IMG/VR virus record: IMGVR_UViG_3300046786_000293
Coordinates: 128,001 to 192,000 of that record
DNA length: 64,000 nucleotides
Reading direction: 5' to 3' (one strand)
DNA from: a virus
Taxonomy: Duplodnaviria; Caudoviricetes
The translations under genes and the position numbers were made by a program. This document shows positions 57,659-58,358 of this stretch, piece by piece. The notes under the pieces are model-generated. The model saw only the letters and a program-made list of their open reading frames with translations, was not told the origin of the DNA and ran no database searches. Numbering within the stretch: position 1 is the first letter of the stretch; every line of letters starts with the position of its first letter.

Positions 57659-57826
57659 ATGAAAAGCATATATCACGGCCGCGCAGGCGCTAACTCGAAA
57701 TTACGAGGCAAGATAACCAAAATGCTTGCTTGTCGTTGCTGTGATCTATATAATTGGAAATGGTCCGAAAGGATTAAAGAAGCCACAAAACAAATTAAGG
57801 AGTTTAAAAATGGCACAATAGATTGA
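57659..57826 (+). CDS. small basic hypothetical protein (likely start MKSIYH at 57659)
   Basis: TAAATA-N4-ATG; CRCC motif. Confidence 0.6.
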   Translation: MKSIYHGRAGANSKLRGKITKMLACRCCDLYNWKWSERIKEATKQIKEFKNGTID

Positions 57827-58358
57827 ATATGCTTGTGAAGATGTAGTCTTTCACTTTAACAAGAAACACTTAGAAGACAACACCGTTCCAATGTGGGTGT
57901 TAAAAACACATGGAGAGACTTATTACGTAAGTCATGTGGACTGTGCGGTATCTTGGAGCACCAAGGAAACTCCCGACAACAGTCACACAAAAGGCAGCAT
58001 CAAAGTTAAAAACGTTTTACTCGTTATTAACGAAAGCAACGAAGCTACAATTACCCAACTAACCGTATACGACAAAATTCGCTTGCGTAACCAAAAGCGT
58101 GGCATCACACGAATTATGTTTGGCTGGGGTGGCAAAATGCATACAGCGTTGGCCGCAAATGAGTTCAAACACACGCCCTTTAAGAACGTAGAAGGTAGTT
58201 GTGGCAGCAGTTATGTGATATGTGACTTGCTGAAGAAAGAAGAAGCGACTTTTGCCGCACTGAAATATAGTTTTCGTGTGCTACAGCCCAACGAAACTTA
58301 CTATAAGTTCTATGATAGCAAGGAAAAATGGATAGACGAAATCGACGAGGACGAATAA
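57810..58358 (+). CDS. hypothetical protein, 182 aa if the in-frame TAG at codon 4 is read through (ORF track shows only 57891-58358)
   Basis: AAGGAG-N7-ATG GCA CAA TAG ATT GAA TAT GCT TGT..., in frame with the tracked ORF, whose own ATG has no SD. Confidence 0.75.

What the first reader, a model, noticed from the sequence alone, without database searches (positions are those of the whole stretch)
57797..58358. A gene with an in-frame TAG at codon 4: candidate amber-gated gene
An ideal RBS (AAGGAG, 7-nt spacer) precedes ATG GCA CAA TAG ATT GAA TAT GCT TGT GAA GAT GTA GTC TTT CAC TTT AAC. This runs in frame into the tracked ORF at 57891, whose own ATG has no SD. Without read-through the ribosome would make only MAQ. 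It is the only internal TAG I found in a credible gene, and it lies 2.1 kb from the CUA tRNA. Inference: the protein is made only when the phage suppressor is active (a self-gated switch or first step of codon capture).
Basis: partly seen in the sequence, partly recalled or inferred. Interest (0 to 1): 0.9.

Follow-up and report, generated by a model that had tools for sequence, protein, structure and literature searches.

The report
Suppressor tRNA with amber-gated partner gene
A giant freshwater phage carries a stop-codon-reading tRNA and a partner gene that always has that stop codon just after its start, a pairing kept across many phages that probably ties the protein's production to the tRNA's activity.

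Summary
AAGGAG, a 7-nt spacer and ATG GCA CAA TAG (57810-57821) run in frame into the ORF that ends at 58358.

It is neither an error nor a young mutation. All 47 distinct related sequences from viral contigs have TAG at this position, 1-3 codons after an SD-ATG. The 23 codons between TAG and Met28 change mostly synonymously while their residues stay fixed, so they are translated.

A tRNA with anticodon CUA lies on the same strand in 78 of 84 related loci, often about 20 nt before the ATG.

The genome as a whole uses the standard code. Ten of about 401 genes end in TAG, and only one other gene (iscU) has an internal TAG.

The N-terminal domain also occurs as an ~85-aa protein, gated or ungated, next to tRNA(CUA) in 52 of 63 distinct loci. 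One is an unannotated gene in cultured Rhizobium phage RHph_I1_18. The domain is also fused to, or neighbours, PTH2 peptidyl-tRNA hydrolases.

PTH2 genes can be gated too: TAG in phage Phosso, which has tRNA-CUA, and TGA in Atu_ph07, which has tRNA-UCA.

Best reading: a conserved suppressor-tRNA and client-gene module, not codon capture. First readers of this scan noted the same motif on four other genomes.

The parts
55569..55596 (+). sigma-70-like promoter match (TAGACT-16-TATAAT) ending 10 nt before the tRNA
   Evidence: a consensus match only, and the region has no more such matches than its shuffles
55606..55679 (+). tRNA with anticodon CUA (reads UAG). It has an encoded CCA, A73, G1-C72, C2-G71, a short variable arm and a C31.A39 mismatch
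   Evidence: ARAGORN; Rfam RF00005 36.1 bits; family features
57623..57642 (+). terminator-like hairpin plus T run after pstS. It separates the upstream genes from the gated gene's unit
57659..57826 (+). small upstream ORF (55 aa from ATG 57659, with a CxxC-type motif). It is conserved in L002 and its TGA stop overlaps codons 5-6 of the gated gene (TAG ATT GA)
57797..57802 (+). Shine-Dalgarno AAGGAG, 7 nt before ATG 57810
   Evidence: SD plus ATG at constant spacing in all relatives
57810..57818 (+). leader codons ATG GCA CAA (Met-Ala-Gln). Relatives have Met plus 1-3 variable residues
57819..57821 (+). invariant in-frame amber codon TAG (codon 4)
57822..57890 (+). 23 codons (IEYACEDVVFHFNKKHLEDNTVP) that can be translated only through the TAG. 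They form the first strand and helix of the N-domain
   Evidence: residues fixed while codons vary synonymously; pLDDT about 95 in the model
57810..58358 (+). whole gated gene, 182 codons plus TAA. N-domain is residues 5-85 (57822-58064); C-domain is residues 97-172 (58098-58325)

Best explanation
The gene starts at ATG 57810. After a 3-codon leader the ribosome meets UAG. The full 182-residue protein is made only when the phage's own tRNA(CUA) at 55606-55679 inserts an amino acid there in competition with release factor 1. Otherwise only Met-Ala-Gln is released. The tRNA and the gene form an old, linked two-part module found in many large T4-superfamily phages that otherwise use the standard code. 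The amino acid inserted is unknown and probably unimportant. The stop itself is what selection keeps, so output of the protein follows the level of active suppressor tRNA.

Inferred, not shown: the protein's N-terminal 'FHFNK...WSTKETP.N.HTKGS' domain works with the suppressor tRNA or with termination and peptidyl-tRNA turnover. The gate would then act as a feedback or feed-forward link between suppressor activity and that factor.
For: (1) TAG is present in 78/78 related loci, 47/47 distinct sequences, always 1-3 codons after SD-ATG. It is also present in homologues of 58% and 50% identity.
(2) In the 23 codons after the TAG, 20 use more than one synonymous codon while most residues are invariant, so this stretch is translated in this frame. 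It forms strand 1 of a confident model.
(3) tRNA(CUA) lies on the same strand in 78 of 84 loci at varied distances and on either side of the gene. In compact loci its CCA end is about 18 nt from the ATG.
(4) In this genome the CUA tRNA sits apart from the 39-tRNA array.
(5) In the broader N-domain family, 34 of 63 distinct loci are gated and all 34 use TAG. 52 of 63 have tRNA(CUA) within 6 kb, and no other suppressor anticodon was seen.
(6) Cultured Rhizobium phage RHph_I1_18 has ATG AGT GAG TTC ATG TAG AAC..., with tRNA(CUA) 12 nt after the gene.
(7) Stop and anticodon covary in orthologous PTH2 genes: TAG at codon 4 in Phosso, which has an annotated tRNA(cta), and TGA at codon 7 in Atu_ph07, which has tRNA(UCA) (PMC6102473).
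(8) The N-domain is fused to PTH2 in P0173. It lies near PTH2 or tRNA_bind genes elsewhere.
(9) No RNA structure surrounds the TAG. No variant is seen at the site in independent samples.
Against: There is no direct evidence of the read-through product, of tRNA expression or of its aminoacylation. No RNA run holds the locus. The tRNA's amino-acid identity could not be assigned. No GlnRS/GluRS or Lys/Asp/AsnRS family gene is in the genome. About half of the wider N-domain family is ungated yet still linked to tRNA(CUA), so linkage alone does not prove decoding. One locus, L082, has the gated gene but no tRNA within 4-7 kb. The stop/anticodon covariation rests on two cultured phages plus one metagenomic locus. 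The protein's function is unknown: no Pfam match, and no convincing structural match for the N-domain.
Confidence: 0.75

Rival explanations
1. The leader is a mini-ORF. Ribosomes end at UAG and restart at the next codon (AUU) or at Met28, so no suppression is needed and the tRNA is linked for another reason.
For: AUU/AUC follows the TAG in all 47 close relatives and AUU is a rare bacterial start codon. Met28 is invariant. The upstream small ORF overlaps the start, so coupling is possible.
Against: In divergent gated members the codon after TAG is GTT (L086), AAC (RHph_I1_18), ACT, AAA or AAT, none of which is a start codon. Met28 is equally invariant in ungated homologues, so it is a structural residue. 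A product starting at Met28 would lack strand 1 and helix 1 of the domain. This rival also does not explain why the stop is always TAG and never TAA or TGA, or why the stop matches the tRNA anticodon in Phosso and Atu_ph07.
Confidence: 0.07
2. The UAG is read through at a low level by host near-cognate tRNAs. The phage tRNA(CUA) is a substrate or partner of the protein rather than the decoder of its mRNA.
For: 23 of 29 ungated N-domain genes are also next to tRNA(CUA). L088 and L097 have tRNA(CUA) beside ungated genes. So the linkage has a basis other than decoding.
Against: A cognate CUA tRNA in the same cell will decode UAG whatever else it does. The covariation of TGA with UCA and TAG with CUA fits decoding by the phage tRNA. 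All 34 gates in the wider family are TAG, and CUA is the only suppressor anticodon found.
Confidence: 0.1
3. The phage is recoded, or is becoming recoded, so that TAG means glutamine (code 15). This gene would be an early example of codon capture.
For: TAG is a rare terminator (10 of about 401 genes, 2.5%; none in this window). Some pipelines translate homologues with TAG=Q. A second internal TAG exists in iscU.
Against: TAG codons flanked by coding-like sequence on both sides are not enriched: 7 of 11695 for TAG against 40 of 17967 for TAA and 25 of 9966 for TGA. Ten genes still end in TAG. The TAG here is fixed in every relative and never alternates with CAA or CAG, which is the opposite of drift under a reassigned code. 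The iscU TAG is private to this genome: 4 of 4 complete relatives lack it.
Confidence: 0.04
4. The TAG is an assembly or sequencing error, or a fresh nonsense mutation that leaves a pseudogene.
For: CAG to TAG is a single transition.
Against: The same TAG is seen in 78 independent contigs. Independent runs show no variant. The whole ORF is under purifying selection.
Confidence: 0.01

Closest known systems
Stop-codon recoding in phages (code 15 TAG=Gln, code 4 TGA=Trp) with phage suppressor tRNAs and 'code change modules' (Borges et al., bioRxiv 10.1101/2021.08.26.457843; crAss-like and Lak phages)
   Same: A phage-encoded suppressor tRNA lets in-frame stops be read. In-frame stops are proposed to gate expression until the tRNA is active.
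   Different: Those phages have stops scattered through many, mostly late, genes at variable positions that alternate with sense codons. Here the genome keeps the standard code. One gene family carries one invariant stop right after the start, and it is physically linked to the tRNA.
Orphan suppressor tRNAs of cultured jumbo phages XacN1 and RsoM2USA (CUA) and Atu_ph07 (UCA)
   Same: These are phages of the same T4-superfamily jumbo group: the capsid protein is 67-70% identical to Vibrio phage 2.275.O, Phosso and PA5oct. Each has a single suppressor tRNA in a standard-code genome (PMC5852040, PMC8504454, PMC6102473).
   Different: The XacN1 authors looked for 3' extensions and found no targets. 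Here the targets are 5'-proximal stops. I found such a gate in the PTH2 gene of Atu_ph07 and Phosso, but not in the PTH2 gene of RsoM2USA. XacN1 was not examined.
prfB (RF2) autoregulation through an in-frame UGA at codon 26 (established knowledge)
   Same: An early in-frame stop recognised by one release factor makes output of a translation factor depend on the balance between termination and an alternative decoding event.
   Different: prfB uses a +1 frameshift and senses its own product. Here the frame is unchanged and the competitor is a dedicated tRNA. Whether the product feeds back on termination is unknown.
Lambda bar minigenes and peptidyl-tRNA drop-off (recalled from memory, not checked here)
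   Same: A strong SD plus a 2-6 codon ORF ending in a stop. The biology is tied to peptidyl-tRNA hydrolase.
   Different: bar minigenes are not followed in frame by a conserved protein and need no suppressor. Here the link to PTH2 comes from gene fusion and neighbourhood.

Membership tests
tRNA (Rfam RF00005), amber-suppressor type | Cloverleaf scoring above the family cut-off, with anticodon CUA | tested here: met
   36.1 bits against 29. ARAGORN gives anticodon cta. Stem pairs covary across 53 family members.
tRNA (Rfam RF00005), amber-suppressor type | Expressed, aminoacylated and active in UAG decoding | not testable with these tools
   No RNA run holds the locus. The identity elements are ambiguous.
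Programmed stop-codon read-through gene | An in-frame stop conserved among homologues, with protein-level constraint on both sides or immediately downstream | tested here: met
   TAG in 47/47 distinct sequences. Residues are fixed while codons vary synonymously in the 23 codons after it.
Programmed stop-codon read-through gene | The read-through protein product is detected | not testable with these tools
   This needs proteomics or ribosome profiling.
Genome-wide TAG reassignment (code 15) | Many in-frame TAGs in conserved genes, at positions where relatives have Gln codons | tested here: not met
   Only two credible internal TAGs in 338 kb. TAG never alternates with CAA or CAG.
Genome-wide TAG reassignment (code 15) | TAG is not used as a terminator | tested here: not met
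   10 of about 401 crude gene calls end in TAG, most with short random extensions after it.
PTH2 peptidyl-tRNA hydrolase (PF01981) | Match to the family profile | tested here: not met
   The window protein has no Pfam match and the genome has no PTH2. Only relatives of the N-domain are fused to PTH2 (P0173, 32 bits).
ACT/RRM-like ferredoxin fold (C-domain, residues 97-172) | Structural match that stands clearly above background | tested here: inconclusive
   Best Z is 5.5, with rmsd 3.0 over 72 residues, and many unrelated rows score the same.

The most novel reading that the evidence does not exclude
The FHFNK/HTKGS domain defines a protein family that is a dedicated partner of phage amber-suppressor tRNAs. 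It could be, for example, an antagonist of release factor 1 or a factor specific for tRNA(CUA) or its peptidyl form. Its own UAG gate would close a feedback loop, letting the phage switch the infected cell into, or hold it at, a set level of UAG read-through. PTH2 would be gated in the same way to clear the resulting peptidyl-tRNA. That would be a self-contained 'suppression controller' in standard-code phages.
Probability: 0.3. Interest if true: 0.92.

Novelty: new variant of a known kind. Interest (0 to 1): 0.85.

Why it matters
Single suppressor tRNAs in standard-code jumbo phages have had no known targets; the XacN1 authors say so explicitly. This finding shows a place to look: a stop placed 2-7 codons after the start of a small, unannotated or mis-started gene next to the tRNA.

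It defines a widespread module: about 250 viral contigs for each of the two subfamilies searched, and 1440 database proteins. The module includes a new protein domain tied by fusion and neighbourhood to peptidyl-tRNA hydrolase.

It exposes systematic annotation errors. Some genes are cut at Met28, some are given a false Gln by code-15 calling, and some are missed altogether.

It gives three cultured phage-host pairs (RHph_I1_18, Phosso, Atu_ph07) in which natural, tRNA-dependent translational gating can be tested directly. The module could also serve as a compact natural part for orthogonal control of translation.

Tried and rejected
- Pfam on the protein and its neighbours gave no family for the gated gene.
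- Structure searches with a confident AF2 model (pLDDT 87.8) were uninformative. Foldseek against PDB gave nothing. AFDB clusters gave only unnamed 70-110-aa proteins for the N-domain. VIA-align gave Z of 5.5 or less, ACT/RRM-like, for the C-domain. The Atlas shape and feature searches gave nothing useful.
- I tried to assign the tRNA's amino acid from identity elements and from similarity to the phage's 39 other tRNAs. The result was ambiguous: A73, G1-C72, C2-G71, no long variable arm, and no close paralogue.
- My codon-usage scan for internal TAGs was noisy. Most candidates were antisense or low-complexity frames and I rejected them by eye.
- Pattern searches for suppressor tRNAs in Atu_ph07 and Phosso failed. 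An Rfam scan plus ARAGORN, and the record's own annotation, found them.
- PTH2 genes of RsoM2USA, Xoo-sp13, RAS14 and SCTP-2 have plain starts. PTH2 gating is therefore clade-specific, and I dropped the idea that it explains every orphan suppressor.
- No read-through-promoting RNA structure was found (z = +1.0).
- Five literature searches found no description of this module.

Full report
**Observation.** The window reads AAGGAG (57797-57802), a 7-nt spacer, then ATG GCA CAA TAG ATT GAA TAT GCT TGT... The ATG is at 57810 and the TAG at 57819-57821. This is in frame with the ORF listed from ATG 57891 to TAA 58356-58358. No ATG, GTG or TTG lies in frame between the TAG and 57891. The only tRNA in the window is at 55606-55679 (+) with anticodon CUA. 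It scores above the Rfam tRNA cut-off (36.1 against 29 bits). The window is bases 128001-192000 of a 338,510-bp virus record estimated 97% complete. Its major capsid protein is 67-70% identical to those of Vibrio phage 2.275.O, Sinorhizobium phage Phosso and Pseudomonas phage PA5oct, so it is a T4-superfamily jumbo phage. Sequencing runs that hold the stretch are freshwater metagenomes. Contigs from two independent samples cover the TAG with no difference.

**The TAG is conserved, not accidental.** A protein search with the read-through translation found 1440 unnamed relatives, most of 183-190 residues. Their N-termini align as M-x-x-'Q'-IEYAC.DVVFHFNKKHLED.T.PMWVLK. That 'Q' is not independent evidence. 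The DNA behind such proteins translates to them only with TAG=Q. Relatives that 'start' at MWVLK have the same ATG...TAG upstream.

I fetched 80 related viral contigs. All 78 loci that carry the FHFNK anchor have TAG at the codon before I-E-[YF]-A-C. Upstream lie an AAGGAG/AAGGAA Shine-Dalgarno, an ATG at constant spacing, and one to three variable codons.

Among the 47 distinct sequences, TAG is 47/47. The next 23 codons keep their residues while using two to five synonymous codons each, for example Phe TTC 29 / TTT 18, His CAC 25 / CAT 22, and Pro with four codons. This stretch is therefore translated in this frame. In the AlphaFold model (pLDDT 87.8) it forms the first strand and helix of a well-packed N-domain. 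A product starting at Met28 would lack them. Met28 is just as invariant in homologues without any stop, so it is a structural residue rather than a start.

**Link to the tRNA.** ARAGORN found a CUA tRNA on the same strand in 74 of 84 loci. A pattern search found four more. Four of the remaining loci are cut at the contig end, and L001 is only a short excerpt of this genome that stops short of its tRNA. One locus (L082) has 4-7 kb on both sides and no tRNA. Distances run from 97 nt to about 7 kb upstream, or a few tens of nt downstream of the gene. In compact loci the tRNA's CCA end lies about 18 nt before the ATG, so the two are almost certainly co-transcribed.

In this genome the CUA tRNA stands alone, 57 kb from the array of 39 tRNAs on the other strand. 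A zinc-ribbon gene, pstS and a small ORF have come to lie between the tRNA and the gene.

All 53 family tRNAs share A73, C2-G71 (G1-C72 in 52), an encoded CCA, the loop YU-CUA-AA, and a short variable arm. Most have a non-Watson-Crick 31:39 pair: C.A in 33 and A.C in 10. The acceptor and anticodon stems covary. I could not assign the amino acid. The genome has no GlnRS/GluRS or Lys/Asp/AsnRS family gene, so a host enzyme presumably charges the tRNA.

**Not a recoded genome.** A crude gene set of 401 ORFs ends in TAA 269, TGA 122 and TAG 10 times. TAG codons with coding-like sequence on both sides are not enriched over TAA or TGA. The pattern of SD-ATG, up to six codons, a stop, and then a long ORF whose first start is far downstream occurs once in the genome, here. 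The only other credible internal TAG is in iscU (GAPACG-TAG-ATA-GGC-DVMKL). It is a 9-nt insertion absent from all four complete relatives examined.

**A wider family.** A representative search showed that residues ~8-84 form a domain that also occurs alone (about 85 aa) and as the C-terminal half of other proteins. One fusion partner is a PTH2 peptidyl-tRNA hydrolase (P0173: 32 bits, cut-off 23). Stand-alone copies lie two genes after a PTH2 gene (L097, Phosso, Atu_ph07) or near a tRNA_bind gene.

A second scan with the stand-alone subfamily gave 63 distinct loci. Thirty-four are gated, all by TAG right after M-x(1-2). Twenty-nine have an ordinary start. tRNA(CUA) is within 6 kb in 52 of the 63 (29 gated, 23 ungated). 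No UCA or UUA suppressor was seen. The domain is therefore linked to amber-suppressor tRNAs whether or not it is gated. Distant two-domain homologues show the same range: L088 has ATG ACT GTG GAA with a CUA tRNA 150 nt upstream, and L087 starts with ATG exactly where the TAG lies in the others.

**Cultured phages.** In Rhizobium phage RHph_I1_18 the stand-alone gene is unannotated. It reads ATG AGT GAG TTC ATG TAG AAC GAA TCG TGC..., and the annotated tRNA(cta) starts 12 nt after its stop.

In Phosso and Atu_ph07 the PTH2 genes are annotated from an internal ATG. The conserved PTH2 N-terminal strand (KLRIYSI[IV]R.DLE) lies upstream of that ATG. It is reachable only from an SD-ATG followed by a stop: ATG AAG TAT TAG in Phosso, and ATG ATT GGC GAA CAC TTT TGA in Atu_ph07. 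Phosso has an annotated tRNA(cta). Atu_ph07 has a tRNA(UCA) (PMC6102473) with the same C31.A39, A37-A38 and A73 features. This matching of stop and anticodon is the strongest indirect evidence that the phage tRNA decodes the gate. It rests on few lineages. PTH2 genes of RsoM2USA, Xoo-sp13, RAS14 and SCTP-2 are not gated.

**Mechanism.**
- Shown: a conserved early UAG, coding constraint just after it, and a linked cognate tRNA.
- Inferred from this: translation starts at 57810, and UAG is read by the phage tRNA in competition with RF1, which yields the 182-residue protein.
- Further inference: because the stop is kept while the residue at that position is free (Met-start, Thr, Arg or Asn in ungated homologues), the gate is regulatory and makes protein output track suppressor activity.
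- Speculation: because the domain keeps company with tRNA(CUA), PTH2 and tRNA_bind, it probably acts on the suppressor tRNA, on termination, or on peptidyl-tRNA turnover. The phage also encodes a tmRNA and an ArfB-like protein. A plausible logic is that factors coping with, or boosting, read-through are made in proportion to it.
- The invariant 'TAG ATT GAA' (GAA 47/47) suggests a constraint on the 3' nucleotide context. From memory, A after UAG favours suppression in E. coli.

**Rivals.** Reinitiation at AUU fails in members where GTT, AAC, ACT, AAA or AAT follows the TAG. Code 15 fails the genome census. Sequencing error is excluded. Decoding only by host near-cognate tRNAs remains possible but is unlikely in a cell that holds a cognate tRNA.

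**Novelty.** Phage suppressor tRNAs and gating by in-frame stops are known ideas from recoded gut phages. A dedicated, conserved pair of tRNA and start-proximal stop in standard-code phages, together with the associated domain, was not found in five literature searches. The XacN1 paper states that no targets could be identified. First readers of this scan had flagged the same motif on four other genomes. I treated those notes as leads. One of them, on a gated PTH2-like gene, prompted the check.

Noticed in passing
outside the window: genome 65300-65695 (-), locus L092:615-1010: iscU carries a 9-nt in-frame insertion TAG ATA GGC right after the first cluster-ligand motif (GAPACG-*-I-G-DVMKL). 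Four complete relatives have intact iscU without it. An HNH-like ORF lies next to it. If iscU is functional, this is a second client of the suppressor tRNA. First readers proposed ribosomal bypass instead.
   Followed up: partly
window 55606-55679 and 52 related tRNAs (L002-L084, L089); Atu_ph07 MF403008 about 430713-430787: The suppressor tRNAs keep a non-Watson-Crick 31:39 pair at the base of the anticodon stem (C.A 33, A.C 10, C.C 2 of 53) with A37-A38. U8 is often missing and the D-loop is very short. The UCA suppressor of Atu_ph07 has the same C31.A39. This may tune decoding against release factors.
   Followed up: partly
outside the window: genome 5387-6021 (-), 111567-126564 (-), 111813-112106 (-): The phage encodes a tmRNA, an array of 39 tRNAs and a 139-codon open frame with an ArfB-like RF-1 domain (52.6 bits). 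Together these form a ribosome-rescue kit that fits a phage living with stop-codon read-through.
   Followed up: no
database proteins P0002-P0121, P0122, P0123; loci L002-L004: Public gene calls for this family are of three kinds, all artefacts of the TAG: full length with a false Gln (code 15 calling), cut at Met28, or started at V/M of VFHFNK.
   Followed up: yes
L089 (MN988519) 2977-3225; L091 (PV764938) 1872-2366; L090 (MF403008) about 1998-2381: GenBank records miss the gated gene in RHph_I1_18. They start the PTH2 genes of Phosso and Atu_ph07 at an internal ATG, 54 (Phosso) and 38 (Atu_ph07) codons short.
   Followed up: yes
window 57819-57827 and relatives: TAG ATT GAA is conserved at the nucleotide level (ATT 44 / ATC 3, GAA 47/47) beyond what the residues need. 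The ATTGAA also supplies the TGA stop of the small upstream ORF (57659-57826), which is conserved in L002-type loci.
   Followed up: partly
L046, L058, L062, L069, L035, L010 (compact loci): The tRNA's CCA end lies only about 18 nt before the gated gene's ATG. tRNA 3' processing would therefore create the mRNA's 5' end just ahead of the Shine-Dalgarno sequence.
   Followed up: no
window 55761-63138: Neighbouring genes: a zinc-ribbon protein (55761-56519), pstS-like phosphate-binding protein (56579-57571), HNH endonuclease (58469-58813), peroxiredoxin (58839-59384), class II aldolase-like (59384-60034), TerC-like membrane protein (60681-61337), AhpD-like (61340-61858), and the gp23-like major capsid protein (61954-63138, -). 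Only the zinc-ribbon protein and the HNH endonuclease were checked against Pfam, and the capsid protein by tblastn. Peroxiredoxin and aldolase rest on Pfam hits to the counterpart genes in the related locus L002. The other names are my reading of the translations.
   Followed up: no
L082 (IMGVR_UViG_3300007177_000761, 11.5 kb): This is the one locus with the TAG-gated gene and no detectable tRNA within 7 kb upstream and 4 kb downstream. The tRNA may lie further away, as it does in L078 and L079.
   Followed up: partly
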